Positions 1 through 15,337 of a DNA stretch of 64,000 bases are shown in pieces; position 1 is the first letter of the stretch, and every line of letters starts with the position of its first letter. The stretch is from positions 1 to 64,000 of IMG/VR virus record IMGVR_UViG_3300035670_000028. One strand, written 5' to 3'. The position numbers and the translations under genes were made by a program. This DNA is from a virus. The notes under the pieces are model-generated. The model was not told where the DNA came from, ran no database searches, and saw only the letters and a program-made list of their open reading frames with translations.

Positions 1-675
1 ACAGAATCTCAGCTTCGCAGGATCATCCGCCAGGAGGTTGGCAGGCTCACAGAGGTGGCAGCGCCCACCGCAGGAAAGCTTGCCGTCTTTGAGTTTATCT
101 ACCCTGATGAGGTCCTGCCCGATGGGCGGACCGTCCTGGACACGCTCAAGGAGGAGGCAGCCGCCAAGGGGCTCCCTGCACCAATTGGTCCTATTGCGAC
201 ATCGATCGGTAAGTACGTAATCATGGTGGGTCCTCGAAATGCGCTGAAGTCGATTGGGAGCAAGATTGATAGAGCATTTGGTGGCTACATCGTCGACTTT
301 ACGACGAGCAATGTCGAAAAGTACTTGGATGAGCACCAGAAACCCGAGGTCAAGAGGCCTCTCAACGCCGCGCTTAAGAAGCTCGGATGGACTCCTTCCG
401 CCCCTCTCACCGGCATGGCGAAGCTCGAATTCAGCGCGCTGCTCGCGACCGAGGACACGGACATGTCTGTCGAGGAGATGCAGGAGCTCGCCGCGCGTCT
501 GGGTGTGGAGGGCAAGCTGATTCGCGGAAGGAACAAGGGCGGAACATTCTCTGTGACCGGCCCCCGCCCCGCAGTCGAGAAGTTCGCCCTTGAGATGGAG
601 AACGCCTACTACGGCGGCGCGCAGTCTATCGACCAGGAATCGGGTCTCTTCTCGATGATCAAGGACGTCCGATAG
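1..675 (+). CDS. Leader-bearing putative head-internal protein (5' truncated by the window edge)
   Basis: Frame 1 is open from position 1 and reads TESQLRRIIRQEVGRLTEVAAP, continuing into ORF 55..675. The start lies upstream of the window. Confidence 0.75.
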   Translation, partial: TESQLRRIIRQEVGRLTEVAAPTAGKLAVFEFIYPDEVLPDGRTVLDTLKEEAAAKGLPAPIGPIATSIGKYVIMVGPRNALKSIGSKIDRAFGGYIVDFTTSNVEKYLDEHQKPEVKRPLNAALKKLGWTPSAPLTGMAKLEFSALLATEDTDMSVEEMQELAARLGVEGKLIRGRNKGGTFSVTGPRPAVEKFALEMENAYYGGAQSIDQESGLFSMIKDVR

Positions 676-701
676 GTCTAAGCGCTACAGGAAGGGTGGA
701 T

Positions 702-1910
702 ATGAGAATTACTGAGGGACAGCTTCGTACAATCATCCGCCAGGTGCTGTTTCGTCTCACAGAGACGTCAGCACCTAATCCAGATCATCTGTTTGAAGAT
801 CAAGACGTCTTTGGTCAGTCATTTAATGATCCGGATAAGCGTAAGTCCTTTCGAGTAAGTGATCCACCCGAAAAGAATACGTCAGAAGAACAAAAATTCA
901 TCAACAAGCTTAAGAAATGGTTCAACGGTCACTTGGTTGCTGGTAGCTTGAATAGCTTTGCTAGTGACATAACAGAGCTAATGCCAGTTATTAGATCAGG
1001 AATATATCCAGAGCTAACTCCTCCGTCTGGCAATGTCTATAGAGGCATGAAGTTGACACCAGATCAACTTAAGAGTTTCTTAGACTTAGAAGAGTTTACT
1101 ATCAAGGCCGGTAAATACAAAGTCATTGACAAGGGCGGTGTCTTGACACCCCAGCGAATAAAGTTTTACAAGCAAGGCAAGCCAATAAGCTCTTGGTCTA
1201 CTAGTGCCTCTGTGGCCGCAAACTTTTCAGATAAGTCTACAAATCCAAGTGTTGATGAAGCATCTCTTATGAGTGTGGTGTTTGTAGCTGACACTAGCGA
1301 TTCGTCTAACATGTTTTTTCTGAATCCAGACAATCTCGCAAGATCTTATTCGAAGCAGATGTCAAACTACAGCAATGAAAAAGAGGTCATAGCAGTTGGC
1401 CCTGTTAGGTTCAACAGCGTTGTTGTATACAGTAGCAGAGATGTGGTCGAGAGTGGATCTCCTGAATCTGAAAAAATGGAATTTTTGGAGTCTGTATTCA
1501 GAGACATCGTCAGCAGAATTGATGAAGCTATACAAGACAGGAAAACTAAGCTGTCTCAGGCGGCAAGCAAGCTCGGTCTAAAAAAACCATCAGATGGGCG
1601 CAAGATCAAGTACATTGGTAAAGACCGTGCGTTTGTCTCTATAGTAACCACTGCGGCAAATGGCATATCTGATATCATAGAAAGCGTTGCAACAGAATAC
1701 GGCATAAAGAAGCTCGAAAATTCTGGAAGTATTAGGCAGGAACTATTCTTCTTGCATGACTTTAGAGCTTCCGGCGAGTACAGAGATCTGAGCAGTCCTG
1801 CCAATATTACAAAGTTTCTAGGAGAAGAAATTAGAGCTATAATAGGTTTCAAAAGAGGATATGCTCCAAATCTTCAGACACTAGCCAAGAAGGCATCTGC
1901 AAAAAGATAA
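702..1910 (+). CDS. Leader-bearing putative ADP-ribosyltransferase (R-S-E type)
   Basis: MRITEGQLRTIIRQ..RLTE leader; ART-like motifs VYRG, SSWSTS and EKEVI. The gene body is AT-rich compared with its flanks. Confidence 0.7.
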   Translation: MRITEGQLRTIIRQVLFRLTETSAPNPDHLFEDQDVFGQSFNDPDKRKSFRVSDPPEKNTSEEQKFINKLKKWFNGHLVAGSLNSFASDITELMPVIRSGIYPELTPPSGNVYRGMKLTPDQLKSFLDLEEFTIKAGKYKVIDKGGVLTPQRIKFYKQGKPISSWSTSASVAANFSDKSTNPSVDEASLMSVVFVADTSDSSNMFFLNPDNLARSYSKQMSNYSNEKEVIAVGPVRFNSVVVYSSRDVVESGSPESEKMEFLESVFRDIVSRIDEAIQDRKTKLSQAASKLGLKKPSDGRKIKYIGKDRAFVSIVTTAANGISDIIESVATEYGIKKLENSGSIRQELFFLHDFRASGEYRDLSSPANITKFLGEEIRAIIGFKRGYAPNLQTLAKKASAKR

Positions 1911-1923
1911 GAGAGTGTTTTCT

Positions 1924-3063
1924 ATGAGAATCATTGAGAGCATCGGCACTGATTGGGACACCGCCATATCGAACTGGTTCTATGACCACCCCACCGGATT
2001 CTCAGACCGCGTCCTCGCAGTGCTCGAGGACAATGCCATGCACGCCTATAATGAGCTCATGCTGCTGGGATCGTGGGGTCCGAGGAACTGCACAGAGGCC
2101 TCTGAGGTGTGGAGGAAGATCTTCGCTGAGAATGGTATTAGGGCCAAAATTGTGAACGGATTCTTTGAGCCCGCGCACTCACCCGGCCAGGCATTCAGGG
2201 GCAGCTCGGACCACGTGTGGCTGGAGGTCGAGGGCGGCGTCTTCGATCCGACTGCCGCACAGTTCTCAAGCAACATCAGCCTCGCAGACTACTGGCTCGA
2301 TGAGGTGACGCCGGCGTACGACGCTCCTGGAGCGATTGTTGAGAAGGTCGACCCGGACGCGGCATTCGAAAAGTATCTCGATAGTCACTATGGCCTGGAT
2401 CCGTCTGAGATTCGCAAGGCCAAGCGCGACCTTGAGAAGCACGCTGAAGAGCCTCCCAGCGCTCCATTGGGAAGAGTTGCATTCGGTCCTGAGCGCTACC
2501 CACCCATATACGAGCCCAACACGAAGGAGGAGAAAGCCCTCCTCAATGCGCTCTGGCACCACTTTGAGGGCTACGAAATACTCAGCGCGAAGAACGCTGA
2601 GGCGATCAGGGGAATGATGAGGAAGGGGCGATATCCCTCTGTCTTTGTGCCGCCGCGCGTCACAACTGTCTATCGTGGCATGACTGTGAATCTCACCTGG
2701 CTCGCAAAGGCGCTCGGTGTGTCAGTGCGTGACCTCAAGCGCATAGGCAAGACGACGCGTCCGCATCCGGCCGAAATGTTCACCAAGGGAAAGACTGAGG
2801 TCAACTTTAAGTTTGTCCCTAGGAAGGGCGCCGCCTCCTGGTCTAAGTCTCACCGTGTTGCGCGAGGGTTTCTGTCATCCGACTACGACACCGCCCAGAT
2901 CATCTTGCACGCTGATGTGGCCGAGAATGAGGGCAGGCTCATGGACGCAACCGGCCTGTACGGGAAGGTTTCAGGATTCGGCGGATTCAAAGCTGAGAAA
3001 GAGGTCCTCGGCCTAGGCCCCATTCGAGTGCACATGATCGAGTGGGAGATCGAGTGGGAGTAG
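1924..3063 (+). CDS. Transglutaminase/papain-like domain fused to an ADP-ribosyltransferase-like domain
   Basis: N-terminal NC..HVW..FDPT (Cys-His-Asp pattern); C-terminal VYRG, ASWSKS and EKEVL. ATG at 1924 gives MRIIE. Confidence 0.65.
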   Translation: MRIIESIGTDWDTAISNWFYDHPTGFSDRVLAVLEDNAMHAYNELMLLGSWGPRNCTEASEVWRKIFAENGIRAKIVNGFFEPAHSPGQAFRGSSDHVWLEVEGGVFDPTAAQFSSNISLADYWLDEVTPAYDAPGAIVEKVDPDAAFEKYLDSHYGLDPSEIRKAKRDLEKHAEEPPSAPLGRVAFGPERYPPIYEPNTKEEKALLNALWHHFEGYEILSAKNAEAIRGMMRKGRYPSVFVPPRVTTVYRGMTVNLTWLAKALGVSVRDLKRIGKTTRPHPAEMFTKGKTEVNFKFVPRKGAASWSKSHRVARGFLSSDYDTAQIILHADVAENEGRLMDATGLYGKVSGFGGFKAEKEVLGLGPIRVHMIEWEIEWE

Positions 3064-3118
3064 TTTCAATGAGATCAGATCCCATCGTGTTTGGCCGGTC
3101 CTGTAGGCTCACAACTTG

Positions 3119-3125
3119 ATACTTA
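3119..3125 (+). promoter_or_regulatory. ATACTTA putative late promoter
   Basis: Recurrent intergenic heptamer found upstream of structural genes. Confidence 0.55.
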
Positions 3126-3166
3126 CGTCTAGCGCGTTTAGCGCCCCATTGACGTGAGGATTTTTG

Positions 3167-3727
3167 ATGTCGAAGACGGGACGTGAGAGCCTATCCAAGC
3201 TGAGAACTTTGGTCGACGACCTCTGCGACAGGGACGAGGGGATCAAGCGCGACGTCTCCCTGTTTGAGGCTGTTTTTCACAACTTCCCAGTACCAGTTGC
3301 CATATGGCTCAGTGATGAGAAGGGGCACTGTGTGTCACGCAGGGTCTCCGGCAATGGCTCCAGGGGATGGCAGGACCCTGAGGGAACGATCGACAGCGTC
3401 TTCAGCATCTACCGGTGCCCGGAGCTGAGGAAGCAGATCGACAGGCACTTCAAGCGCGCGGTGAAGGGGAAGCAGCTGAGCTTCCTGACCGAGGTTGAGG
3501 GCACCTGCGTGTGGACCCGACTGACGCCTCGATTCACAGGAAGCGAGTGCACCGGCGTGATTGGGATCTCGTGGGACATCACCGCGAACTATAGGATGTA
3601 CCAGATCCTCCGCAGAGTGGAGGCGCTTCAAGTTCCAGGTGTCGACCTCGACAGCCTCAAGACAGAGGCCCAGGGCGCAATTGGCACCAGCATCATCAAG
3701 AAGCTTTTAGAGGAGGCAGAGAAATGA
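3167..3727 (+). CDS. Stand-alone PAS/PAC-domain protein
   Basis: FEAVFHNFPVPVAIW PAS start and GVIGISWDIT PAC end; no output domain. Confidence 0.65.
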   Translation: MSKTGRESLSKLRTLVDDLCDRDEGIKRDVSLFEAVFHNFPVPVAIWLSDEKGHCVSRRVSGNGSRGWQDPEGTIDSVFSIYRCPELRKQIDRHFKRAVKGKQLSFLTEVEGTCVWTRLTPRFTGSECTGVIGISWDITANYRMYQILRRVEALQVPGVDLDSLKTEAQGAIGTSIIKKLLEEAEK

Positions 3728-4074
3728 GCAGTGATTCTCCGTCTGGCGACCGCCGCCAAAATGGATGGAACGAGTATTCCAAGCTCGTCCTCAAGGAACT
3801 GGAGACCCTCGCCGACAGCATCGACAGCCTGCGCACCGAGATCCAGCAGGTGAAGCAGGAGATCGCCAAGATGCAGGTTCGGGAGGACAAGGTGAATGAG
3901 CTCAAGGACTGGAAGGCCAAGATGGACGAGGCCGCCACACCGACCCAGATCAAGGAGGTCGTCAAGCAGGTGGATGACCTCAAGCTCTTTAAGACCAAGG
4001 CGATCACAGTGTTCGCAGTGGTGCAGTTTCTGATGGCAGCTTTTGCGCTGCTGATCAGATTTATCGATAGGTGA
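3724..4074 (+). CDS. Coiled-coil protein with C-terminal transmembrane helix (possibly holin-like)
   Basis: Heptad-rich body, hydrophobic tail AITVFAVVQFLMAAFALLI, ATGA overlap with the PAS gene. Confidence 0.55.
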   Translation: MSSDSPSGDRRQNGWNEYSKLVLKELETLADSIDSLRTEIQQVKQEIAKMQVREDKVNELKDWKAKMDEAATPTQIKEVVKQVDDLKLFKTKAITVFAVVQFLMAAFALLIRFIDR

Positions 4075-4084
4075 GGAGAAATAA

Positions 4085-5254
4085 GTGGCCACATTCATAC
4101 AGACGACCGCGCCCACGCCGTTTGGCTTCTTCGACTCGGACACAACGTTCCAGACCGAGGCGGACGCCATGGTCGTCTTTGTGAAGAGGAAGCTGGGAGA
4201 CGACATCCTCTCCGTTGAGCTCACCAAGAAGCAGATCTGGGCGTGCTTTGAGGAGGCGGTGCTTGAGTACGGCGCGCTGATCAACCAGTACCAGGCAAAG
4301 TCCCAGCTTCTCAACCTCCTCGGTGTTGAGACAGGATCCCTCTCGGGCGCCGAGCAGAAGCTCCCCCGTGAGAACCTGGAGTACGTCCTCCGCCAGGCTG
4401 AGCCGTACGGCATGGAGGCCTCTCTCGGAGGCTCCTACACGTCAATGTCAGGTTCCATTCAGCTATCTCAAGGGCAGCAGGACTACGACATTTACACTGA
4501 CCTCAAGGATGGCAGCGGCAATCTCATCTTCTCTAGCAGCCTCAACACACCGCGCTCCAAGATGAAGATCATGGAGGTGTTCCACTACAACCCGCAGGCC
4601 GCGTATCGCTTCTTTGACACGACATCCGCCATCAACTACCTGAACAATGAGTTCGCGTTCGAGTCCTTCACACCTGAGACTGTGTTCTACATCCTTCCCA
4701 CCTTCGAGGACGTGCTCCGTGGAGGAATGCTCAACATCTCCCAGAGGGTGAGGCGGTCCAACTACTCCTACCGCATTGTGGGAACCAAGCTCAGAATATT
4801 CCCAATGCCGACCGAGGGCGCGCCTAAGAGCCTGTGGGTGAGAGTGCAGTTCGCTGCAAATCCACTCTCCTCACCGTACGGCGACGCATCAATCAACGGA
4901 ACAAGCAACCTCTCTAACGTGCCGTACGGCAACCTCCAGTATGGCAAGCTCAACTCTATCGGTCGACAGTGGATCAGGCAGTACTGCCTTGCCCTGGCGA
5001 AGGAGCTCCTGGGACTCATTCGATCAAAGTTTTCCACTGTTCCTATACCTGGTGCGGATCTCACCCTAAACGGTGCCGATCTGGTGACGCAGGGACGCGA
5101 GGAGCAGACAGAGCTAATGACCCAGCTGAAGGAGATGCTCGACTCCCTCACATACAGCAAGCTCCTCGAGCAGAAGGCAGCGGAGGTCGACAACCTCCAG
5201 AAGATCCTCAGGAATATTCCCATTCCAAACGGCAAAGCAATTCTCATGGGCTGA
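4085..5254 (+). CDS. Neck protein (T4 gp13-like)
   Basis: LSVELTKKQI and WIRQYCLALAKELLGLIRSKF..IPG..LTLNG resemble gp13-type neck proteins; position before the sheath genes fits. Confidence 0.75.
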   Translation: MATFIQTTAPTPFGFFDSDTTFQTEADAMVVFVKRKLGDDILSVELTKKQIWACFEEAVLEYGALINQYQAKSQLLNLLGVETGSLSGAEQKLPRENLEYVLRQAEPYGMEASLGGSYTSMSGSIQLSQGQQDYDIYTDLKDGSGNLIFSSSLNTPRSKMKIMEVFHYNPQAAYRFFDTTSAINYLNNEFAFESFTPETVFYILPTFEDVLRGGMLNISQRVRRSNYSYRIVGTKLRIFPMPTEGAPKSLWVRVQFAANPLSSPYGDASINGTSNLSNVPYGNLQYGKLNSIGRQWIRQYCLALAKELLGLIRSKFSTVPIPGADLTLNGADLVTQGREEQTELMTQLKEMLDSLTYSKLLEQKAAEVDNLQKILRNIPIPNGKAILMG

Positions 5255-5266
5255 TAGGAGCGTCTC

Positions 5267-5926
5267 ATGGCAAGACTTTTCATAACGCCCCGGGAGATAG
5301 ACTTCATAAGCGACATTACGAAGGAGATCACCAAGGACGTCCGCGGCCAGAAGATCTACTACTACGGAGTCCGTGAGGACCTCTCTCAGGTCCACGACGT
5401 CTACGAGGAGTCTCCGGAGAAGGTGTTCAATCCACCTATTGAGCTGGAGGCCTCTGTTGAGTGGGAGCAGCCTGTTATCACTACCAATAAGTTCGGCTCT
5501 GAGACGCTGTCAAAAGTCGTCTTCTATGCCCACACTCGAGATCTGCTCGATCGAGACATTGCGGTGAAGGTGGGAGACTATTTCTCATACGGTCAGGAGT
5601 TCTATGAGATCACATCTGTCATCATTGAGAAGCAGGTCTACGGTCAGATTGAGCACCAGGTGGGTAAGAAGGTGTCGGGTATCCAGGCGCGCCGCGGTCT
5701 TATCGATCGCCCAGCAAACGGTCCCACATCCGAGGAGGATCTCGATGCAGGATCTGTTCAGACGGTGTTCGATCAGCAGAGGGGCTATGAGCAGAATAGC
5801 TTGGGTCCCACTGAGGACAAGCGGCAGCTAGTCGAGGACGGAAAGCTCGATCCAGGATTAACAGGCCCCAAGATAGTTAAGGAGCAGGGCTCAGAGCCCA
5901 CATCCTTCTTCTACGGAGATGAGTGA
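5267..5926 (+). CDS. Neck/head-closure protein (gp14-like)
   Basis: Synteny; VYEES.EKVF and VGDYFSYG..FYEI motifs. Confidence 0.6.
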   Translation: MARLFITPREIDFISDITKEITKDVRGQKIYYYGVREDLSQVHDVYEESPEKVFNPPIELEASVEWEQPVITTNKFGSETLSKVVFYAHTRDLLDRDIAVKVGDYFSYGQEFYEITSVIIEKQVYGQIEHQVGKKVSGIQARRGLIDRPANGPTSEEDLDAGSVQTVFDQQRGYEQNSLGPTEDKRQLVEDGKLDPGLTGPKIVKEQGSEPTSFFYGDE

Positions 5927-7236
5927 TGAGCACTAGAAGAGACATTCCGCCTGGATCCAATAACGTTCCAACAGGATTCGAAGGCAATGATGTCCCTAAC
6001 GACATTGAGATCCCTTCGTGCTCTATAGAGGACGTCGACCGCGCAGTGTTCAATTTATTTGACAAACAGCTCCCTATGCAGGTGCGACAGGGAGGAAATG
6101 GATCGGGAACAGGGACCCGAAAGGTCCCTGTCATCTTTGCAACAGGAGAGAGATTTGCATTTCTCCGAAGAAAAATCCCACTAGGCGATCGCGGCGGAGA
6201 CCACAGCGCGCTCATTATTCCGCTCATATCAATTACACGCTCGGCGATATCACAGGAGCCTGACAACGGAATTAGCGGTGGGCAAACTGAGCCTATTGTG
6301 ATCAAGCGCAGGCTCTCAAAGGACAGCCCCATCTACAAGCGCCTCATCAATGAGTATGAGCTTAAGAATCAGGATGAGGTGTTTGATCAGACACACAATT
6401 TGCCTGGTTTGGGTAGCGGATCAAATCCGGGAACAGCGGGCTCAAGAAGAGCCGGCACTTCCACCCCAGACGATGCTCGACAGGGAAAGCTTCTAAGACC
6501 GCACCTCTCTAACAACATCTACGAGACACTTACAATTCCTCCTGTCAAGTACTACACAGCCACCTACAACATAACGATATGGACCCAATACACGCAGGAG
6601 ATGAACGATCTCCTGATGGTCATAATGAGCCTCTACCAGAATAATCACAAGAGGACATTTAAGCTTGAGACGAGCAAGGGATACTGGTTTGTGGGATACG
6701 TTGGAAGTGACCTAACTGCTGAAAATAACTCTGATGACTTCACTGACGCTGAACGTCTGATCAAATACAATTTTGACATGAAGGTAAATGCATATATTGT
6801 TGCTCCTAAGTACCAGGGATCTCCTGCGTACATCAGAAGATATGTCTCGGCGCCTACTGTCGAGTTCAACACATTTGCGACCCAAGGAAAAATTATTGTT
6901 GGAGGATACACTCCAAGGAGCGGTGATCCCAATAAGTTTGTTCTAGAGGATGTGTACAGTGAGACAAATGAAGACGTGGGCTCAGGTGTCGCTGCAAACA
7001 CAGCTGAGAATGTCGTTCTCTCTCTTGATTCACACACAGACAGGAGCGCAGCCACCGTGGGTGGTTACAACAACAATAACTTTAATACTTCTGCAAGAAC
7101 TGTTGTGACAAGTAGAAACATATTCACCGGTGCAGAGCAGAACAACATTCTAACTGTCAAGTCAGTAAATTCAAGAAAAGGTGAGACGGTGTTTAGAGAG
7201 CAGCAGATATTCAAGATTGATGATTTCGATGTGTAA
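5923..7236 (+). CDS. Tail sheath stabiliser/terminator (gp15-like)
   Basis: IEDVDRAV, VPVIFATGERF, PLISITR and YNITIWTQY motifs; synteny. Confidence 0.65.
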   Translation: MMSTRRDIPPGSNNVPTGFEGNDVPNDIEIPSCSIEDVDRAVFNLFDKQLPMQVRQGGNGSGTGTRKVPVIFATGERFAFLRRKIPLGDRGGDHSALIIPLISITRSAISQEPDNGISGGQTEPIVIKRRLSKDSPIYKRLINEYELKNQDEVFDQTHNLPGLGSGSNPGTAGSRRAGTSTPDDARQGKLLRPHLSNNIYETLTIPPVKYYTATYNITIWTQYTQEMNDLLMVIMSLYQNNHKRTFKLETSKGYWFVGYVGSDLTAENNSDDFTDAERLIKYNFDMKVNAYIVAPKYQGSPAYIRRYVSAPTVEFNTFATQGKIIVGGYTPRSGDPNKFVLEDVYSETNEDVGSGVAANTAENVVLSLDSHTDRSAATVGGYNNNNFNTSARTVVTSRNIFTGAEQNNILTVKSVNSRKGETVFREQQIFKIDDFDV

Positions 7237-7292
7237 TGTTGGACAGAGTTTTACATGTGGCAGTCAGTGATGGAAGTATGAGTTTCGAACTA

Positions 7293-7299
7293 ATACTTA
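7293..7299 (+). promoter_or_regulatory. ATACTTA putative late promoter
   Basis: Upstream of tail sheath 1 and its TAAGGAG RBS. Confidence 0.6.
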
Positions 7300-7329
7300 G
7301 AAGAGAAACGTTCGTAAGGAGTTAACTCG

Positions 7330-10300
7330 ATGCCTGAACAGACATTTAGATCCCCCGGATTCTTTGAGCAGGAGATTGACCTGTCCGCTCGCGCCGGCAG
7401 CACTCTTGGAATACCGGCAGGAGTAATCGGCACATCAAAGAAGGGCCCTGCGTTCGTGCCTGTGACGATTGGAACATTTACTGATTTCGAGAATCGTTTC
7501 GGCACCCTCGATCCCGATCGCTTTGGACCTTATGCAGTCAATGAGTTCCTCAAGCATCGAAATGCTGTGACATTCGTGAGGGTCCTTGGCGCAGGAGCGA
7601 ACAGCACGGAGTCTGATCTCAACAACACGGAGACGATGGGAATCGTAAAGAGCGCAGGATTCGTCCTGTCAGCTTCAGCGACCGACTACTCTCCTGGCGC
7701 AGTTCAGTTCCTCTGCGCAAGCCAGTCACTCCAGTCTGGAGAGCTTGCAGGTTACCCTGTCTTCTCTGACAATCGCTCCTTCAATGAGAGAAGCACGACT
7801 CTCAACGACGCGAACCTCGTCCGCGCTGTGATATTCACAACGACAGGCTCTAGGATTGAGGTGCTTGACTACAATCAGTCTTATTCGGCACCTGCTGCTG
7901 GAGACTCTCTTGCTGATGTAGGAAATGGATCGATTGGTGAGCCCTACTTCAAGCTCGTAATTTCGTCATCTCAGGGCGCGTCCTTCTCCTATGATGAGCT
8001 AAATGCTGGAATAAGGATCCTCACAGCTTCGCTTAATCCATCGAGCAAGCACTACATCGCAAAGATTCTCAATACAAATCCTGACAAGTTCCAGGAGATG
8101 CAGCACCTCCTGTATGTCGACCTTCCTGTTGAGAACGAGCTTGCAACAGTCAAGTCTGTCGCAATCCTCTCAGGAACGAGCGGAACCACGACATCAGGCG
8201 GTGACAAGACGACACCCTACAGAAATCTATTCGGCAAGTTCAATACGCGTTACACGACTCCCAAGACGACTGCCATCATCTCACAGCCGTTCGGAACTGT
8301 TGAGTACGATCTCTTTCACTTTGAGACGATAAGCGATGGAGAAGCGACCAACGAGGAGTACAAGGTGTCGATTGCGAATATTCGCAAGTCGCTCGATCCT
8401 GCAAACGCGTATGGAACTTTCGATGTTCAGATACGTCGCTTCACAGATGTGGACACTCTGCCAGAGATTCTCGAGGTATATCCTGCTTGCAATCTCAATC
8501 CAAAGAGCGAGAATTACATTGCTCGAAAGATTGGAGACAAGAAGGTACACTTCAACTTTGATACGACTTCTGACACAGAGCAGCGCCTCATCGTTACAGG
8601 CAAGTACCCCAATCTGTCAACGAGAATTCGCGTCGTCATGAATCAGGCAGTTGAGAATCAGACGGTTCCCACCGACGCGCTGCCATTCGGTTTCAGAGGA
8701 ATTCCTGTCCTCAAGACATCTAACTCTCTCACAGACGATAGTCTTGTTGTGCTCTCAGACAGATTCGGTGTGAGCCTAGGTGATAGTGCAACATCTCGAC
8801 TCGGAGGCATAACAGCAGCAGTGACTCCGCTCTCTGCGTCCATTCTTCCTCCCCTTCCTCTTCGATTCAAGGTGACAAGAGGCGCTGTGAATGATGGAAC
8901 GTCAACAGCTATCTCTTTCATAGGAGATCCAGGCGACAACGAGCGCGCCGACAATCGTCTATACTGGGGTGTGAAGTTTGAGAGGCTTCCCCTAGAGGCC
9001 ACAGTCACAAATGCCGTGCTGAACTCTAACGTCTCTGATGTCGCCAATCCCCTTGTGAAGGGATATGCGAAGTTCCAGGGAATTGCAAAGCTTGACACAC
9101 TAGTGACAGGCGCAGCAGCAGACGAGTTCAACAACAATAAGTTCACACTGTCTCGTGTCGCTCTCTACAATCAGCTGCAGGGCGGCCAGATAACTGACGT
9201 GACAGGAACAGCGAGAGAGCACATGCTTGAGGCGTCCTACCTCAGAAATGGCACGCCTAGCGCAACTGACTACACCATAAACGACGCAGTTCTTGGTGCG
9301 AACAGAATCACAATGGCGACACTTGTTCACTCCGCGTCCTCTGTGTTCAACAGGTTCCAGGAGTTCAATAAGTTCACCACAATGTTCTACGGTGGTTTTG
9401 ATGGCGTGAACCTCCTTGATAGAGACAATCGTCTCCTCAACGATCGCGCGAGCTCCTCCGACACAGGTGGTAAGGCAGGTGACACGTATGCTGGAGGCCT
9501 AGGCCTTGCAGGAACAGCTGTTGCTGCGATGTCAGGCAAGGGCAAGGACAACAACGTTGTTGCCGCATACCAAGTTGCCACACGACTCATGACTGATGAG
9601 ATCTCTTCCAATGTCAACGTTCTTGCAATTCCAGGCATCAGAGATGTTCTCGTCACAGACTTTGCGCTGGATGCTGTAAAGAAGTATGGCATGGCCATCT
9701 ATCTCATGGATGTCCTAAACTATGACGTGGACTCAAACCGCCTCTTCGATGACTCCTCCGCCAAGCCGGATGTGAGAGAGACATCAGAGCAGTTCGATGC
9801 GAGAGCAATCAATAACAACTACGGCGCATCGTACTTCCCAGATGTCTTCCTTCGCGATAACGTTGCAAATCGTCCTGTGAAGGTACCCGCTTCGGTCGCA
9901 GCTATGGGAGCCCTTGCATTCAATGACAAGATTGCCTACCCATGGTTCGCACCCGCAGGATTCAATCGCGGTGCCCTCGCGGAGGTCTCAAACGTCGCGA
10001 CACGTCTTAATTCTGAGGACAGAGACGTTCTCTATGACAGCAGAATTAATCCCATCGCGACATTCCCAACCGGTGGATTCGTGATCTTTGGTCAGAAGAC
10101 ACTTCAGCAGGCGAAGTCTGCTCTCGATCGAGTCAATGTCCGTCGTCTTCTTCTCGAGGTCAAGCGTCTTGTCGCTGGCGTGGCAAAGCGGTTGCTCTTT
10201 GAGCAGAATGATGCCACAACTCGCGCCAAGTTCCTAAGTCAAGTGACACCTCTTCTTGCTCTAATACAGTCTCAGTCTGGCATTGAGCAGTTCCAGGTTG

Positions 10301-10440
10301 TCTGCGACGATACAAATAACACAACTCTTGACGTAGAGGCCAATAGAATGAATGGAAGAATCGTTCTTGTGCCAACACGTGTTGTAGAGTTCATCTCCAT
10401 CGACTTCATCATCACAAATAGCGGCGTGTCGTTCGAGTGA
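7330..10440 (+). CDS. Tail sheath protein 1
   Basis: SPGFFEQEID..KGPAFVP N-terminus; PWFAPAGFNRG, INPI, FGQKT and RVNVRRLL sheath motifs. Confidence 0.93.
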   Translation: MPEQTFRSPGFFEQEIDLSARAGSTLGIPAGVIGTSKKGPAFVPVTIGTFTDFENRFGTLDPDRFGPYAVNEFLKHRNAVTFVRVLGAGANSTESDLNNTETMGIVKSAGFVLSASATDYSPGAVQFLCASQSLQSGELAGYPVFSDNRSFNERSTTLNDANLVRAVIFTTTGSRIEVLDYNQSYSAPAAGDSLADVGNGSIGEPYFKLVISSSQGASFSYDELNAGIRILTASLNPSSKHYIAKILNTNPDKFQEMQHLLYVDLPVENELATVKSVAILSGTSGTTTSGGDKTTPYRNLFGKFNTRYTTPKTTAIISQPFGTVEYDLFHFETISDGEATNEEYKVSIANIRKSLDPANAYGTFDVQIRRFTDVDTLPEILEVYPACNLNPKSENYIARKIGDKKVHFNFDTTSDTEQRLIVTGKYPNLSTRIRVVMNQAVENQTVPTDALPFGFRGIPVLKTSNSLTDDSLVVLSDRFGVSLGDSATSRLGGITAAVTPLSASILPPLPLRFKVTRGAVNDGTSTAISFIGDPGDNERADNRLYWGVKFERLPLEATVTNAVLNSNVSDVANPLVKGYAKFQGIAKLDTLVTGAAADEFNNNKFTLSRVALYNQLQGGQITDVTGTAREHMLEASYLRNGTPSATDYTINDAVLGANRITMATLVHSASSVFNRFQEFNKFTTMFYGGFDGVNLLDRDNRLLNDRASSSDTGGKAGDTYAGGLGLAGTAVAAMSGKGKDNNVVAAYQVATRLMTDEISSNVNVLAIPGIRDVLVTDFALDAVKKYGMAIYLMDVLNYDVDSNRLFDDSSAKPDVRETSEQFDARAINNNYGASYFPDVFLRDNVANRPVKVPASVAAMGALAFNDKIAYPWFAPAGFNRGALAEVSNVATRLNSEDRDVLYDSRINPIATFPTGGFVIFGQKTLQQAKSALDRVNVRRLLLEVKRLVAGVAKRLLFEQNDATTRAKFLSQVTPLLALIQSQSGIEQFQVVCDDTNNTTLDVEANRMNGRIVLVPTRVVEFISIDFIITNSGVSFE

Positions 10441-10483
10441 TGAATACCTATAGTAAGATCACAGATAATCAGGAGCAAAGATA

Positions 10484-13400
10484 ATGGCTGAGCTGACATT
10501 CAAGAGTCCAGGCGTGAGCACAAGGGAGATCGATCTCAGTGGTCCTGCGAACGTTCTGCCACAGGGAACTCCTGCTGGTGTTATTGGCACCGCGCAGAAG
10601 GGCCGCGCATTCGTTCCGATCACAGTAGCAACATATCAGGACTTCGTCGCTGAGTTCGGTGCTACTGATGGTGAGAAGTTTGGACCACTTGCAATGTATG
10701 AGTGGTTCCAAAACGCCCGGGCAGGAACATATGTGAGGACCCTGGGTGTGGGTGATGGAACAAAGCGGCTAGTTTCAGGAATCAATGCTGGCAAAGTGAA
10801 CTACGCAGGATTCGTTGTAGGCGCTCAGCAGGTTCAAGTAAACGGTCAGATTGGCAGCAATTCGTACGCCGGCATCGATAAAGCAGGTTACAAGGGAGAG
10901 CTTGGAAGGACCTACTTCCTAGGCGCTTTCATGTCAGGAACTTCTGCCTCTCCCATTCTCTCAGACACCAATGTGCAGAAGACATCAGCAGCTGTTCCGA
11001 TTGTTCGCGGCGTTCTAATGGCTGCATCTGGCGTCATTGTCTCACTATCTTCATCCTACTCAACAAATAACGATCCAAGCGACATCTATAAGTCATCTGG
11101 CTCATTCACGTCCAACACTGTGATTGGCGACGCTGGAGCTCACCTAGGCACTGTCAATATCAACAGTGGCAGGTCTGACTTCGTTCTCTTTATGAACGGC
11201 CTCGTTCCCACGGCCCAGTTCTCCAACGTTATAACAGCATCTTTCGATCCCGCCTCCGCTCAGTACTTCCCGAAGGTTCTCAACACTGATCCTTATAGAC
11301 TTGAGTCCGCGGGACACTACCTGTACACAAGCTGGGATGTACATCCATCCTACGCAGTTGTTACCTCGTCGGGCGTTCAGACAGGAACTCCTGCAGGAAC
11401 AGGTCTGGTTGAGGCAGCATTCCTTCTCACGGGAACACAGACATACAACAGCGGTGCCCTCACACTGCCCAATTACGAAGGCTTCGAGTCAAGGTACGCT
11501 ACCGCATTCTCACCCTTCGTAGTTTCTCAGAAGTTTGGTGGCAAGCCTCAGAATCTCTTTAGACTACACTCACTTGATGACGGTTCCTCCGGAAACAGCC
11601 AGTTCAAGATCACAATCGAGAACATCGCTGCCTCCAGAAATGAGAACAGCCCCTACGGTACCTTCGACCTTGTAATTCGGTCCTTTGGCGACACGGATGA
11701 GGATAAGGTCGCGCTGGAGACGTTCCGAGCCCTCTCTCTCGATCCCAACTCCGATCGTTACATCGCACGTGTGGTGGGCGACCAGCACATCTACTACGAC
11801 TTCGATCAGCGGAGAGGCGCTCAGAAGCTTCGCGTCGAGGGGTCCTACCCGAACTCCTCCAAGTACGTGAGAGTGGAAGTGGCGTCCGATGTTGAGAGGC
11901 AGATAATTGACGCGTCAGCGCTTCCAGTCGGATTCCGCGGACCACACTTCCTCCTCACATCCGGAACAAACGCGTCGGGCGCAGCAGCACTCCACGGCTA
12001 TGTGACAGGAACGCTGGATCACGGAGTCGATGTCGCAGACCTTCAGGCCGCGCAGGTCGCACCAATCCCATACCGACTCAACATCGCGAAGGGAACAGGC
12101 CTCAGCAAGAAGGTCAATGCTTCCCTCACGTGGGGCGTTCAGTTTGAGGTTCAGGACAATCTCGCTGATCCGAACGGCACTGTGGGTCCGGACGCATCCC
12201 GTGCATCCTACACCAAGTACTTCCCGATGTACCACACCAACTTCCGCAATGTGATGCTCGGAGACACTGTGGGCCTCGCTGACGACGGTGGCATGGTCCT
12301 TGACTCAGATAAGTTCCAGAACAACCTCTTCTCTCTGGAGAACGTTCAGATTGCGACGGGGTCCACTGATAAGCCCGATGAGAAGGCGTGGGATATTGCC
12401 TCCTACCGAAGGAACGGAGTGAAGCTCACAGCACTCACTGCCTCTGATGGACGCACATTCGACGCAAACAACACGCGCTTCCTCGACCCTATCAAGGACT
12501 TCGACCACGTTCCCTCGAGGAAGTACCTCAAGTTCTCCTTCTTCATGCAGGGAGGATTCGACGGTGTCAACATCTTCGATCGCCAGAAGTCCAAGCTCAC
12601 TGATATCGCGGTTCGCCGTGAGATCGACAATATCGCGCAGGGCGGAATTGAGGGACCCACAGTCAACGCCTACAGGAAGGCGATCGATGTTATGTCCGAG
12701 AAGTCCGACGTCGACATTCAGCTCCTCGCCATCCCAGGAATTCGACACTACAGCGTGATGGACTACGCGGTCGACGCTGTGGAGAGCCGCTTCGACGCCC
12801 TCCTCCTGATGGACGTCGAGGAGCGCGATCAGTTCAACGAGCCCATGACAGGCTCCTCCGTGCAGATGCCCTCCGTCTTCAACACGGTCAACCGCATGGC
12901 GGACCGCAACATGGACACCTCCTTCGCTGCGGCGTACTACCCCGACGTCGTGATGCAGGATCCAGGCACCCTCACAAACATTGTGGTTCCTCCCACGGTC
13001 CCCGTCCTCGGCGCCTTCGCGCTGAACGACACAGTCGCCTACCCCTGGTTCGCTCCCGCTGGCTTCACACGCGGCGCGATGCCACGGGTCCTAGAGACTC
13101 AGGTGAAGCTCAACAGGGCGAACCTCGATGACCTCTACGAGGTGGACATCAACCCGCTCACATCCTTCGCCGACTCCAACGGTGTCGTGGTGTTCGGACA
13201 GAAGACCCTCCTCGCTGCACAGAGCGCGCTTGATCGGGTCAACGTTCGCCGCCTCCTCATTGAGATCCGCCGGCGCGTGCGCCGCGTCGCGAACACGATC
13301 CTCTTCGAGCCTAATCGTGAGTCCACCCTCTCCCGCTTCTCCGCTGCCGTGACACCCATCATGCAGCAGATTCAGGCGCAGCGCGGCCTCGATCGGTACA

Positions 13401-13543
13401 AGGTGCAGATCGACACCACAACGACCACCGCGGCCGACGTGGAGAACAACACGATCCGCGGCAAGATCTACCTCCAGCCCACGCGGTCCCTGGAGTTCGT
13501 CTCCCTCGACTTCGTGGTCACAAATCAGGGCGCGACAGTTTGA
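10484..13543 (+). CDS. Tail sheath protein 2
   Basis: SPGVSTREID; PWFAPAGFTRG, FGQKT and RVNVRRLL motifs; preceded by ATACCTA at 10444. Confidence 0.93.
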   Translation: MAELTFKSPGVSTREIDLSGPANVLPQGTPAGVIGTAQKGRAFVPITVATYQDFVAEFGATDGEKFGPLAMYEWFQNARAGTYVRTLGVGDGTKRLVSGINAGKVNYAGFVVGAQQVQVNGQIGSNSYAGIDKAGYKGELGRTYFLGAFMSGTSASPILSDTNVQKTSAAVPIVRGVLMAASGVIVSLSSSYSTNNDPSDIYKSSGSFTSNTVIGDAGAHLGTVNINSGRSDFVLFMNGLVPTAQFSNVITASFDPASAQYFPKVLNTDPYRLESAGHYLYTSWDVHPSYAVVTSSGVQTGTPAGTGLVEAAFLLTGTQTYNSGALTLPNYEGFESRYATAFSPFVVSQKFGGKPQNLFRLHSLDDGSSGNSQFKITIENIAASRNENSPYGTFDLVIRSFGDTDEDKVALETFRALSLDPNSDRYIARVVGDQHIYYDFDQRRGAQKLRVEGSYPNSSKYVRVEVASDVERQIIDASALPVGFRGPHFLLTSGTNASGAAALHGYVTGTLDHGVDVADLQAAQVAPIPYRLNIAKGTGLSKKVNASLTWGVQFEVQDNLADPNGTVGPDASRASYTKYFPMYHTNFRNVMLGDTVGLADDGGMVLDSDKFQNNLFSLENVQIATGSTDKPDEKAWDIASYRRNGVKLTALTASDGRTFDANNTRFLDPIKDFDHVPSRKYLKFSFFMQGGFDGVNIFDRQKSKLTDIAVRREIDNIAQGGIEGPTVNAYRKAIDVMSEKSDVDIQLLAIPGIRHYSVMDYAVDAVESRFDALLLMDVEERDQFNEPMTGSSVQMPSVFNTVNRMADRNMDTSFAAAYYPDVVMQDPGTLTNIVVPPTVPVLGAFALNDTVAYPWFAPAGFTRGAMPRVLETQVKLNRANLDDLYEVDINPLTSFADSNGVVVFGQKTLLAAQSALDRVNVRRLLIEIRRRVRRVANTILFEPNRESTLSRFSAAVTPIMQQIQAQRGLDRYKVQIDTTTTTAADVENNTIRGKIYLQPTRSLEFVSLDFVVTNQGATV

Positions 13544-13572
13544 TCGCGCGCAGATAAAAGGTAATTGATCGC

Positions 13573-13606
13573 TCAAACGGGGACTTGCGTCCCCGTTTGA
13601 TTTTAT
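13573..13606 (+). terminator. Rho-independent terminator (possibly bidirectional)
   Basis: 12-bp stem TCAAACGGGGAC-TTGC-GTCCCCGTTTGA followed by TTTTAT, between convergent genes. Confidence 0.8.
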
Positions 13607-13621
13607 AGACGCTGATTATCT

Positions 13622-15274
13622 TTAGACATCTAGCGTTAGAAGAAGATTAGGGCATCCCCAGATCTTTACTACGCCGTGCAAGTCTGCGACCTGCTGCTCG
13701 GTGAGATTCTGTTCTGAGTCAGCTCGGATCTTAAACCTATCAATCCTTACGCGCCCATCCGTCCACCAGAATCGGTTTGGAGTCGTGGCCACGTGCTGCC
13801 ATCCTGACTTGATGTATCCATCACCGCTGCCCCACCGAGTGTCGACATATGTCATGAGCTTCGAGGCTCCCACCTCTTTCGCATGCTTTCTTGCAGCGGA
13901 TGTGAGTCGTCCGAGTCCACCCACAACATTGGTCGCGAGCCGTGTGCTGTACCTGGCTATCTCGAGGTGGTCAACAAACTTCTTGTGAAGAGGCCTCCGA
14001 AGGGACATGCACGCCACTAGATTACCGTCTCTATCCTGCAACCCAAAGCATGCAGAGGACTTCACGTCTCCGTCTATGTGAGTCTCGTTGAAGAACGCCC
14101 TCTTCTGCGCAGGATCGACTCTAACAACTGTGCACTCCCTAGCTCCGATTGACCGCCTGGACATACCTGTCTTGTGAGCAATAATCGACTCACATATTGC
14201 CCGCTTATCCCTCCACTCATCCTCGAACACGTGAATGAGCCGCACACCGACCTCCTGACACATCCGTGATTTATTAGAGTGGTAGTTCTTACTCTTGAAC
14301 AGCGCGCTGTGAAAGTAGAGTCCATTGTACTCTATGCCAATCCGTTTCTCAGGAATGATGACGTCTATCTCGTACGGGGAGATGATGGATCTGTCAGACA
14401 TGGAGGTCTTAAGCCCCATGAACCTGATATACCTCTCAACCTCCACCTGCGCCTGGGATCCTGCCGGAGAGCAAGTGCCGCATCGACCGGATGATGCCTC
14501 TATCAGGCTCTTCACAGAAACATTGTCACACTTTACACACCGAAACTTAAGATTCTTGACCCGGTCACGCACGTAGTCTGCTGGATCGCTCTCGAGCACT
14601 AGCGTGCCCTCTGACGCTGACAGACGCTTGAGGATCTCATCAGTAGAGAGACGCTTAAGTGCGTCCAATCGACTGCGCACCTCCTCACGTCTAAGGGTGC
14701 GAGACACTGTCTGACTCATCGACAACACCCTCTCGTCTGTCTCCTTTGTGAGCCCTTTGGCCCACGGCACGTACCGACCGGAAGTGTATCCTTCTATCAG
14801 GTTATTACGGCACTTCTCGATCGTCTCAGACGTCTCGTGCGTGCTGCCCTTATTCCACGCAGACCGCTCTCCTGACTCGAACTGCCGAGACACTGTCTTG
14901 CTCCTCGTCTGCGCTCCGCGAGCGAGAGCCTCAGAAGTCTCTTTATTGAGGCCTCGAGACCATCCCACCCGGCCTGTAAGCTTCGCTCTTCTCTCTGATG
15001 ATATTCTACCCGCCTCATCTTCTCCGTAGGCAGAGTAGATGCTCCCATTATGTCCTAGGACGAACTTTGAGTAGCCCTTGTTCCACCCATAGAATGTAGG
15101 AACCTCATCGCACGCGTTGCACCCGCACCGAGGCTTTAGTCCGTTCAGCTTGAGAGCGACATAGGCTGCCTCCACGCTCTCGAACCCGTGCGCAGACATG
15201 TGCTCCTCAAAAGGCGCCGCCCTTCCAGACGTGTACTCACACATGGGGCACGCAAAACGCTTGCTAGATTTCAT
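13622..15274 (-). CDS. Hef-like/PD-(D/E)XK homing endonuclease with Zn fingers, NUMOD-like repeats and a C-terminal GNAT-like domain
   Basis: EIDV..IGIEYNGLYFHS and IHVFEDEW; WNKG/WAKG repeats; CxxC motifs. The only credible minus-strand gene; MKSSKR start chosen. Confidence 0.7.
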   Translation of the reverse strand: MKSSKRFACPMCEYTSGRAAPFEEHMSAHGFESVEAAYVALKLNGLKPRCGCNACDEVPTFYGWNKGYSKFVLGHNGSIYSAYGEDEAGRISSERRAKLTGRVGWSRGLNKETSEALARGAQTRSKTVSRQFESGERSAWNKGSTHETSETIEKCRNNLIEGYTSGRYVPWAKGLTKETDERVLSMSQTVSRTLRREEVRSRLDALKRLSTDEILKRLSASEGTLVLESDPADYVRDRVKNLKFRCVKCDNVSVKSLIEASSGRCGTCSPAGSQAQVEVERYIRFMGLKTSMSDRSIISPYEIDVIIPEKRIGIEYNGLYFHSALFKSKNYHSNKSRMCQEVGVRLIHVFEDEWRDKRAICESIIAHKTGMSRRSIGARECTVVRVDPAQKRAFFNETHIDGDVKSSACFGLQDRDGNLVACMSLRRPLHKKFVDHLEIARYSTRLATNVVGGLGRLTSAARKHAKEVGASKLMTYVDTRWGSGDGYIKSGWQHVATTPNRFWWTDGRVRIDRFKIRADSEQNLTEQQVADLHGVVKIWGCPNLLLTLDV

Positions 15275-15281
15275 AAACCTA

Positions 15282-15308
15282 ACTATACATGCACCTACCT
15301 CGTTTACA
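15282..15308 (-). promoter_or_regulatory. Sigma70-like promoter (TGTAAA-N15-TATAGT)
   Basis: The -10 box ends 7 nt before the ATG at 15274. Confidence 0.45.
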
Positions 15309-15337
15309 TCATATGGCTGTGACAGGAGGCGCAATAG

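What the first reader, a model, noticed from the sequence alone, without database searches (positions are those of the whole stretch)
702..3063. Tandem ADP-ribosyltransferase-like cargo genes
Seen: both proteins carry VYRG, SWS(T/K)S and EKEV in the order of the R-S-E ART catalytic motifs. The first has the full leader; the second begins with a minimal MRIIE. Established: T4 Alt is a virion-packaged, injected R-S-E ART. Inference: these are Alt-analogous host-takeover or anti-defence enzymes of a different sequence family, with unknown protein or nucleic-acid targets.
Basis: partly seen in the sequence, partly recalled or inferred. Interest (0 to 1): 0.72.

Follow-up and report, generated by a model that had tools for sequence, protein, structure and literature searches.

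The report
Two phage ADP-ribosyltransferase-like genes
Two neighbouring genes of a large uncultured phage encode proteins with the fold and key residues of ADP-ribosylating toxins, from a big family that no database names; one carries the phage's shared N-terminal tag, so it is probably loaded into the head and injected, as phage T4 does with Alt.

Summary
ORF1 (702-1910) and ORF2 (1924-3063) both carry VYRG, SWS[T/K]S and EKEV in that order. They share a ~190-residue module (28% identity, E 2e-9).

The module defines a large family: 1334 clusters at E<=0.001, with no Pfam, PHROGs, NCBIfam or PDB sequence match. Arg is kept in 182 of 182 domains, Ser in 169, and E-x-E in 173 and 181 (Q-x-E in 8).

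It is not Alt/VIP2 by sequence.

- ORF2 has an N-terminal transglutaminase-like Cys-His-Asp domain.
- ORF1 has a C-terminal helical domain and 42% GC against about 57-59% in its neighbours, so the pair is not a recent tandem duplication.

Only ORF1 has the full leader, which five other ORFs share. Packaging, NAD use and targets are inferred.

The scan has noted leader-tagged ART-like phage proteins before on other DNA (e.g. e1-5410910).

Verdict: a new variant of a known kind, of moderate interest.

The parts
702..1910 (+). ORF1, 402 aa: leader + ART-like module + helical C-terminal domain
   Evidence: Open frame. 16 database relatives including itself. GC 41.9%, GC3 39.7%, against 57-59% and 70-77% in neighbours.
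702..764 (+). ORF1 leader, aa 1-21 (MRITEGQLRTIIRQVLFRLTE), followed by a low-confidence linker (aa 19-33)
   Evidence: The same N-terminal peptide is on six ORFs of the record. The model shows helix 5-19, then pLDDT below 50 for 19-33.
801..1439 (+). ORF1 ART-like module, aa 34-246, with R114 (nt 1041), S164 (1191), E226 (1377), E228 (1383)
   Evidence: Family invariants. R lies on strand 111-118. S lies on strand 162-166, followed by helix 169-175. E228 opens strand 228-232. ART-superfamily structural matches.
1455..1907 (+). ORF1 C-terminal all-helical domain, aa 252-402, ending in a basic tail (LAKKASAKR)
1924..3063 (+). ORF2, 379 aa from ATG 1924 (382 aa from GTG 1915): transglutaminase-like domain + linker + ART-like module
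   Evidence: Open frame. GAGAG lies 8 nt before ATG 1924. The Atlas holds the protein from this ATG. Seven relatives.
1924..2274 (+). ORF2 N-terminal domain, aa 4-120 (numbering from 1915), with C59, H100 and D111
   Evidence: Pfam Transglut_core is below cut-off in 4 of 4 proteins that have the domain (E 0.0087-0.14). Cys sits at the start of helix 59-72, His at strand 101-105, Asp after strand 108-110. Only three relatives in 5.8 billion proteins.
2275..2466 (+). ORF2 linker: low-confidence stretch (117-138), then two helices (147-176)
   Evidence: Model. In four relatives the ART half starts here as a stand-alone protein of 238-248 aa.
2467..3060 (+). ORF2 ART-like module, aa 185-382, with R254 (nt 2674), S308 (2836), E361 (2995), E363 (3001)
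   Evidence: pLDDT 95-98 in most 10-residue blocks, with dips to 71-91 near 281-290, 321-330 and the C-terminus. R lies on strand 251-259, S on strand 307-310 before helix 313-317, and E363 opens strand 363-366. Structural matches.
1..675 (+). Upstream neighbour ORF0 (cut by the record's start) with the same leader; same strand, 26 nt before ORF1
   Evidence: No family match.

Best explanation
Both genes encode active mono-ADP-ribosyltransferases of the R-S-E (cholera-toxin-like, ARTC) type. They belong to a large sequence family, apparently phage-borne, that no curated profile library covers.

Proposed mechanism, by analogy with the R-S-EXE enzymes:
- The Arg on strand 1 and the Ser on strand 2 hold NAD+.
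- The second Glu of E-K-E on strand 5 catalyses loss of nicotinamide.
- The first Glu directs ADP-ribose onto an arginine of a host protein.

ORF1 carries the phage's shared N-terminal address peptide. It is therefore probably built into the prohead, trimmed, and delivered with the DNA, as T4 does with Alt. Its helical C-terminal domain would choose the target or the place in the head.

ORF2 is a two-headed enzyme: a small papain/transglutaminase-like Cys-His-Asp domain joined by a flexible linker to the ART module. Whether ORF2 is packaged is open.

Shown here: the homology, the invariants, the predicted fold, the domain layout and the shared leader. Inferred: NAD use, arginine specificity, packaging, injection and host take-over.
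For: Motifs and homology.

Family size and conservation:
- 1334 clusters at E<=0.001 and 819 at E<=1e-10.
- In 182 domain instances from 168 proteins: Arg 182 of 182; Ser 169 of 182; the following Trp 180; first Glu 173 (Gln in 8); second Glu 181.

Models: mean pLDDT 80.9 (ORF1) and 82.5 (ORF2); most 10-residue blocks of the ORF2 module score 95-98. Arg, Ser and E-x-E sit on successive strands, with Ser followed by a helix.

Structural matches, counted from the entry titles:
- Second look at Foldseek's top chains: 43 of 50 rows (ORF1) and 49 of 50 rows (ORF2) are ART superfamily. The rest cover other domains.
- Foldseek's best PDB hits are Vis (prob 0.98) and cholera toxin A1 (prob 0.85).
- BFVD: five phage or virus proteins at E<=0.001. 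Three are named head-morphogenesis, portal or (further down the list) minor-capsid fusions. One listed row is named an ADP-ribosyltransferase.

Register: CT/LT rows start at model 248 = chain 1, or 251 = chain 4, which would put R254 on Arg7. Arg7 is an active-site residue by the title of 1ltg.

Atlas: the only two named family sets among 30 feature hits are DUF4765 and DRAT. DUF4765 is ART-like by structure (PMC7883292, passages).

Literature:
- R-S-EXE on strands 1, 2 and 5 marks arginine-specific ARTs, and QXE variants have other targets (PMC3102197, passages).
- Head-packaged ARTs are predicted to be common in myoviruses (PMC9503650, abstract, section 3.3.1 and passages).

Packaging lead: the leader is on six ORFs. 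A leader-like N-terminus occurs in 34 of 168 family members. The genes lie just upstream of the neck and tail genes.
Against: Fold evidence is moderate, not strong:
- No Foldseek PDB hit reaches E 0.001.
- I had no coordinates, so the residue register is inferred from range ends.

No sequence link to a known ART:
- Pfam, NCBIfam and PDB sequence searches give no hit to any known ART family.
- hhalign against T4 Alt is null.

An ART-like fold need not bind NAD: CNFY domain D4 does not (PMC7883292).

Against packaging:
- The head protease is ClpP-type, not gp21-type.
- In the one large related locus read (L007), the ORF1 homologue lies between an HD hydrolase and the ssDNA-binding protein, not in a head module, and lacks the full leader.
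- ORF2 has only five leader-like residues.
- No virion proteome exists.
- The record is estimated 44% complete and begins inside ORF0, so the promoter of the unit is unseen.
Confidence: 0.55

Rival explanations
1. The fold is ART-like, but the chemistry or target differs. The enzymes would be NAD+ glycohydrolases, or would ADP-ribosylate nucleic acid or a small molecule rather than protein arginine.
Against: Both window proteins and 173 of 182 family domains have the full E-x-E. In the reviewed pairs of related enzymes, E-x-E goes with arginine specificity. The Tpt1 matches cover only the shared core, and Tpt1 lacks the R-S-E triad (recalled). Vis, an enzyme solved with the arginine analogue agmatine (title of 4xzk), aligns over the longest stretch (131-145 residues).
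Confidence: 0.15
2. Active ARTs that are not virion cargo. They would be made late and act inside the infected cell on host or phage proteins, and the shared leader would serve another purpose, such as translation, localisation or assembly chaperoning.
For: ORF2 lacks the leader. Most family members lack a recognisable one (134 of 168). The L007 homologue sits among replication genes. The protease is not of the T4 type. T4 itself also has non-packaged ARTs, ModA and ModB (PMC9503650).
Against: The same leader heads six otherwise unrelated ORFs. In ORF1 it is followed by a disordered linker. The genes sit directly upstream of the neck and tail genes on the same strand. The best viral structural matches include ART-like domains fused to head-morphogenesis, portal or minor-capsid proteins.
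Confidence: 0.2
3. Catalytically inert ART-like proteins with a structural or binding role in the head or in host interaction: pseudo-enzymes.
For: ART-like domains without NAD binding exist, such as CNFY D4. All activity here is inferred.
Against: Near-total conservation of exactly the three catalytic positions across 182 divergent domains is what purifying selection on catalysis predicts. CNFY D4 has R, E and H at the corresponding positions instead of R-S-E.
Confidence: 0.07

Closest known systems
Phage T4 Alt (gpAlt), head-packaged RNA-polymerase ADP-ribosyltransferase; Pfam PF03496 ADPrib_exo_Tox, Alt/VIP2 family
   Same: A phage-encoded R-S-E-type ART in a contractile-tailed phage. T4 Alt sits in the scaffolding core at about 40 copies (PMC9958956) and enters the host with the DNA (NC_000866 annotation). 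ORF1 likewise carries an N-terminal peptide shared with other proteins of its phage.
   Different: No detectable sequence relation: PF03496 gives no hit at E<=1 where Alt gives 5.8e-36, and hhalign probability is 0.27%. The domain layouts differ: the Alt ART lies at aa 374-614 of 682, ORF1's at 34-246 of 402. The leader is different and the head protease is ClpP-type. Packaging is not shown here.
Cholera-toxin-group R-S-EXE mono-ARTs with solved structures (Vis of Vibrio splendidus 4xzj/4xzk, LT/CT A1, pertussis S1)
   Same: Predicted fold. The order and strand positions of Arg, Ser-x-Ser/Thr and Glu-x-Glu match. Vis aligns over 131-145 residues, including the helical lobe before strand 1. LT/CT aligns over 91-94 residues at rmsd 2.6-3.0 and 18-22% identity (ORF2 module).
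Polyvalent and MuF-fused virion effectors of phages (Iyer et al. 2017, PMC5512222, seen only as a search listing with the start of the abstract; Iyer et al. 2022, PMC9503650)
   Same: ART domains combined with other enzymatic domains and predicted to be delivered from the head. ORF2 joins a peptidase-like domain to an ART. 13 of 168 family proteins hold two or three ART-like modules. The BFVD matches include head-morphogenesis and portal fusions.
   Different: ORF1 and ORF2 are short proteins with two or three parts and no MuF, portal or other head domain. Addressing, if any, is by a ~20-residue peptide rather than by fusion to a structural protein.

Membership tests
R-S-E (ARTC, cholera-toxin-like) ADP-ribosyltransferases | ART fold (split beta-sheet core) | tested here: met
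   [not shown]
R-S-E (ARTC, cholera-toxin-like) ADP-ribosyltransferases | Arg on strand 1 | tested here: met
   R114 and R254 lie on strands 111-118 and 251-259. Arg is present in 182 of 182 family domains. The CT/LT range starts would place it on Arg7 (inferred from range ends).
R-S-E (ARTC, cholera-toxin-like) ADP-ribosyltransferases | Ser (S-x-S/T) on strand 2, followed by a helix | tested here: met
   S164 and S308 lie on strands 162-166 and 307-310, before helices 169-175 and 313-317. Ser is present in 169 of 182 domains.
R-S-E (ARTC, cholera-toxin-like) ADP-ribosyltransferases | Catalytic Glu at the start of strand 5, with Glu at -2 (EXE) in arginine-specific members | tested here: met
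   E226-K-E228 and E361-K-E363. E228 and E363 each open a strand. Counts are 181 of 182 and 173 of 182, with Q in 8. The rule comes from PMC3102197.
R-S-E (ARTC, cholera-toxin-like) ADP-ribosyltransferases | NAD+ binding and ADP-ribosyl transfer | not testable with these tools
   Needs biochemistry.
Alt/VIP2 family (Pfam PF03496) | Sequence match to the family profile above the gathering score | tested here: not met
   No hit at E<=1 for either protein, at E<=5 for any of the 50 family members, or at E<=1 in the six-frame record. Positive control: T4 Alt scores 5.8e-36. hhalign against Alt gives 0.27%.
T4-type capsid-targeted cargo (CTS proteins) | Short N-terminal peptide shared by otherwise unrelated proteins of the same phage | tested here: met
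   ORF1's leader recurs on five other ORFs. For ORF2, only MRI-E is shared: inconclusive.
T4-type capsid-targeted cargo (CTS proteins) | Removal by a gp21-type prohead protease at L/I-x-E | tested here: inconclusive
   L-x-E follows the leader in ORF0, ORF1, 16901, 61141 and 65362. But the phage's head protease is ClpP-type (PF00574, 3.5e-26). The L/I-x-E rule is recalled.
T4-type capsid-targeted cargo (CTS proteins) | Presence in virions and injection | not testable with these tools
   Uncultured phage with no proteome.
Transglutaminase-like / papain-like cysteine peptidases (Pfam PF01841), ORF2 N-terminal domain | Profile match above the gathering score | tested here: not met
   16.8 bits against a cut-off of 23 (E 0.0087). 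All 4 proteins with the domain give the same sub-threshold hit.
Transglutaminase-like / papain-like cysteine peptidases (Pfam PF01841), ORF2 N-terminal domain | Cys at a helix start, His and Asp on following strands, all conserved | tested here: met
   C59, H100 and D111 are conserved in 4 of 4 sequences (alignment).
Transglutaminase-like / papain-like cysteine peptidases (Pfam PF01841), ORF2 N-terminal domain | Fold | tested here: inconclusive
   [not shown]

The most novel reading that the evidence does not exclude
The module is the catalytic head of a very large, so far undescribed clade of arginine-specific ARTs, apparently confined to uncultured aquatic phages. These phages would trade it as a cassette: the same ~200-residue head appears alone, in tandem copies, behind varied N-terminal domains, or behind a portable 15-20-residue address peptide that loads it into the capsid. 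In this phage, one copy (ORF1) would be a recent import from a lower-GC phage that already uses the same address code. That would imply a cross-lineage 'postal code' for injected effectors. The second copy (ORF2) would pair the ART with a cysteine-peptidase or deamidase-like head as a two-hit injected effector.
Probability: 0.3. Interest if true: 0.75.

Novelty: new variant of a known kind. Interest (0 to 1): 0.55.

Why it matters
Phage-delivered ADP-ribosyltransferases reprogram host transcription and translation. T4's Alt, ModA and ModB are the only well-studied cases.

This work points to a family of at least 1334 sequence clusters with the full arginine-type catalytic signature. Pfam, PHROGs and NCBIfam do not name it, and I found it in none of 50,697 deposited phage genomes. 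If the family is active, it widens the known enzyme repertoire for host take-over in environmental phages. It also offers compact (~200 aa) ART modules for target discovery.

The association with a short shared leader gives a testable handle on how large non-T4 phages address cargo to the head.

Tried and rejected
Sequence routes to a known family that found nothing useful:
- Pfam on both proteins.
- Pfam on 107 of the 146 new family representatives: 106 without any hit, one with pentapeptide repeats only.
- Pfam at E<=5 on 50 members.
- PHROGs: only phrog_8171 at E 0.031 and phrog_4776 in 1 of 50 members.
- NCBIfam.
- PDB sequences by phmmer and by profile: the best hits were allophycocyanin (E 0.017) and phycobilisome linker (E 0.25), read as chance.

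Other searches that found nothing:
- tblastn of ORF1 and of the ORF2 module against 50,697 phage records, and blastn of 1-8000: no match.
- hhalign of the family alignment against T4 Alt: null.

Genomic context of relatives:
- Three alignments were too divergent for the locus finder.
- ORF2-family scans of IMG/VR found nothing.
- The ORF1 family gave 4 loci, of which only L007 was read in full.
- ORF2 searched in 3 of those 4 records (L007 not held) matched only the ORF1 homologue of one.
- One locus for P0046 (L012) gave an uninformative crude ORF map.

Signals and companion genes:
- No Macro or ADP-ribosylglycohydrolase gene in the record. The record is estimated 44% complete.
- The sigma-70 promoter and terminator scan of 1-4200 gave nothing beyond shuffles.
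- The ATAYTTAT box seen upstream of three leader genes does not occur upstream of ORF1 or ORF2.
- ORF1's C-terminal tail motif is shared with no other frame of the record.

Rejected idea: that the pair arose by recent tandem duplication (28% identity, 15-point GC gap).
Full report
**Setting.** The window is the first 64 kb of a 147,186-bp IMG/VR virus record, estimated 44% complete.
- It is a contractile-tailed phage. It has a head-tail adaptor (4085-5254), two tail-sheath paralogues (7330-10440 and 10484-13543), a tube protein, a baseplate hub, and UvsX-, DnaB- and RNR-type genes.
- Its head protease (42549-43151) is of the ClpP type (PF00574, 3.5e-26).
- The finding lies at the very start of the record, on the same strand as the neck and tail genes and just upstream of them.

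**Observation.** ORF1 (ATG 702-1910, 402 aa) and ORF2 (ATG 1924-3063, 379 aa; the frame is open from GTG 1915, and I number from there) are intact.
- No other frame of 100 aa or more in the record holds them in order: 2 of 430.
- The two proteins are homologous over about 190 residues (28% identity, E 2e-9).
- ORF1 starts with MRITEGQLRTIIRQ. The same peptide heads ORFs at 16901, 61141, 65362 and 65670 and the truncated ORF0 at 1-675.
- ORF2 shares only MRI-E with that peptide.

**No known family by sequence.**
- Pfam, PHROGs and NCBIfam give no ART hit.
- PDB sequences give only chance-level hits, by phmmer and by profile.
- Neither protein has a tblastn match in 50,697 deposited phage genomes.

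**A large unnamed family.**
- Word-based searches found 16 relatives of ORF1 (itself included) and 7 of ORF2.
- A profile of both (A3) against 1.84 billion cluster representatives found 1334 proteins at E<=0.001, 819 at E<=1e-10 and 49 at E<=1e-30.
- Of the 146 new representatives I scanned 107 with Pfam: 106 had no hit and one had only pentapeptide repeats.
- An HMM of the module, built in the script box, recovered 182 domain instances in 168 of the 169 proteins held.
- The most conserved columns are the motif residues: Arg 182 of 182, the Gly after it 165, Ser 169, Trp 180, first Glu 173 (Gln in 8) and second Glu 181. A Tyr (182 of 182) and two Glu (180 and 181) are also conserved in a helical block before the first strand.
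- Architectures are modular: 50 proteins are the module alone, 79 have an N-terminal extension of 80 residues or more, 23 have a C-terminal extension, and 13 hold two or three modules.
- 34 of 168 begin with a leader-like helix such as MKIRLSELRRLIRE.

**Fold.**
- AlphaFold2 on ORF1 (alignment A3) gave mean pLDDT 80.9.
- AlphaFold2 on ORF2 (alignment A4, 50 sequences) gave 82.5, with most blocks of the ART module at 95-98.
- In both models the Arg lies on the first core strand, the Ser on a strand followed by a helix, and the second Glu opens a later strand. This is the beta-1, beta-2, beta-5 placement described for R-S-E enzymes (PMC3102197, passages).
- Foldseek against the PDB ranks Vis toxin first for ORF1 (E 0.019, prob 0.98). 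For ORF2 it ranks cholera toxin A1, Vis and LT first (E 0.05-0.11, prob 0.72-0.85).
- VIA-align against 48,161 representative chains, counting from the entry titles:
  - ORF1: 29 of the 32 rows that cover the module are ART-superfamily entries. The exceptions are CC0527, SAIP and a cyanophage A4 ejectosome chain. The other 18 rows match the helical C-terminal domain.
  - ORF2: 33 of 36. The exceptions are BC2332, CC0527 and PflA.
- The second look at Foldseek's top chains gives 43 of 50 ART-superfamily rows for ORF1 and 49 of 50 for ORF2. I count APE0204 as the Tpt1 of the same organism.
- Representative values for the ORF2 module:

|---|---|---|---|---|
| Tpt1 | 7.6 | 3.0 | 90 | 12% |
| Vis | 7.0 | 3.8 | 134 | 16% |
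| Pertussis S1 | 6.2 | 3.2 | 100 | 18% |
| LT | 5.9 | 2.8 | 94 | 21% |

- The CT/LT rows start at model 248 = chain 1 or 251 = chain 4, which would place R254 on Arg7. The pertussis rows start at 248 = 3, which would place it on residue 9. I recall that residue as the catalytic Arg9.
- Against BFVD, five viral proteins score E<=0.001. They include a head-morphogenesis-domain protein and a portal fusion. Further rows include a minor-capsid fusion, three Bacillus phage G proteins and an Aeromonas phage protein named an ADP-ribosyltransferase.
- The protein-language-model search lists 27 of 30 hits in unnamed, mostly viral clusters. The only named sets are DUF4765 and DRAT. DUF4765 is ART-like by crystal structure (PMC7883292).

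**Limits of the fold evidence.**
- The best-scoring matches (Tpt1/KptA) share only the core.
- The case therefore rests on three things: two independent models agree, the match lists are almost purely ART, and the family's invariant residues fall on the catalytic positions.
- CNFY D4 shows that an ART-like fold can lack NAD binding.

**Relation to Alt.** T4 Alt (fetched from NC_000866) matches PF03496 at 5.8e-36. Neither window protein, none of 50 family members, and nothing in the six-frame record matches PF03496. hhalign of the family against Alt gives 0.27%. The family works like Alt on present evidence, but it is not a member of Alt/VIP2 by sequence.

**Other domains.**
- ORF1 has a confident six-helix C-terminal domain (aa 252-402) with no specific match.
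- ORF2 has an N-terminal domain with a sub-threshold Transglut_core hit (E 0.0087). The hit is repeated in all 4 proteins that have the domain.
- That domain has a conserved Cys59, His100 and Asp111, placed at a helix start and on successive strands.
- It has only three relatives in 5.8 billion proteins. One of them (P0023) carries a different C-terminal region with weak Tpt1/PARP-like hits.
- In four ORF2 relatives the ART half stands alone as a protein of 238-248 aa, one of them 93% identical.

**Origin of the pair.** ORF1 has 41.9% GC (GC3 39.7%). ORF0, ORF2 and ORF3 have 57-59% (GC3 71-77%), and the record has 54.3%.
- I infer that ORF1 is a recent import from a lower-GC phage.
- Its leader uses A/T-ending codons where the paralogous leaders use G/C, so the leader probably came with it.
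- Its homologues in other phages mostly start with a shorter leader-like helix (..NLKNLLEYLLE).
- In the one large related locus I read, the homologue lies between an HD hydrolase and the ssDNA-binding protein.

**Mechanism proposed.** The proteins would carry out NAD+-dependent mono-ADP-ribosylation of host protein arginines.
- The E-x-E rule comes from PMC3102197.
- ORF1 would be delivered from the head through its leader.
- T4 is the precedent: gpAlt sits in the scaffolding core at about 40 copies (PMC9958956).
- The survey of Iyer et al. predicts head-packaged ARTs in many myoviruses (PMC9503650).
- Packaging remains inference. The protease is of another type, ORF2 has no real leader, and there is no proteome.

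**Earlier notes of this scan.** Notes on this genome describe the shared tag (e1-5791866, e1-5791888, e1-5791846). Notes on other genomes describe leader-tagged ART-like phage proteins (e1-5410910, e1-5337519, e1-5349046). A sequence look-up found no look-alike of the ORF2 module among earlier windows. I treat these notes as leads, not support.

**Verdict.** This is a new, large sequence family of a known kind of enzyme, in a setting that is known for T4 and predicted elsewhere. Activity, target and delivery are untested.

Noticed in passing
window 702-1910: ORF1 is a compositional outlier: GC 41.9% and GC3 39.7%, against 57-59% and 70-77% in its neighbours. This suggests recent horizontal import together with its leader.
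   Followed up: partly
window 16901-16945, 61141-61185; record 65362, 65670: The shared leader is nearly identical even at the nucleotide level between the ORFs at 16901 and 61141. An ATAYTTAT box lies about 40-60 nt upstream of three leader genes. The window has 4 matches where 0.56 are expected. It may be a late-type promoter.
   Followed up: partly
window 7330-15334: Two tail-sheath paralogues lie in tandem (1036 and 1019 aa). They are followed on the opposite strand by a 570-aa HNH/homing-endonuclease-like gene, which sits between them and the tube gene.
   Followed up: no
window 42549-43151: The head maturation protease is ClpP-type (PF00574, 3.5e-26), not T4 gp21-type. Yet the leaders are followed by L-x-E, as at T4 cleavage sites.
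   Followed up: partly
protein P0023 (relative of the ORF2 N-terminal domain): The same transglutaminase-like N-terminal domain is joined to a different C-terminal region with weak RNA 2'-phosphotransferase/PARP-like hits (E 0.0091-0.07, below cut-offs). This may be a swap of one ART-superfamily head for another.
   Followed up: partly
[not shown]
   Followed up: no
family proteins such as P0116, P0026-P0029: 13 of 168 family proteins carry two or three ART-like modules in one polypeptide. The two-gene tandem seen here exists elsewhere as a fusion.
   Followed up: no
window 1-675 and 3164-4074: ORF0 carries the leader but is cut by the record's start. ORF 3164-3727 and the coiled-coil ORF 3724-4074 flank the pair. 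None has a family match.
   Followed up: no
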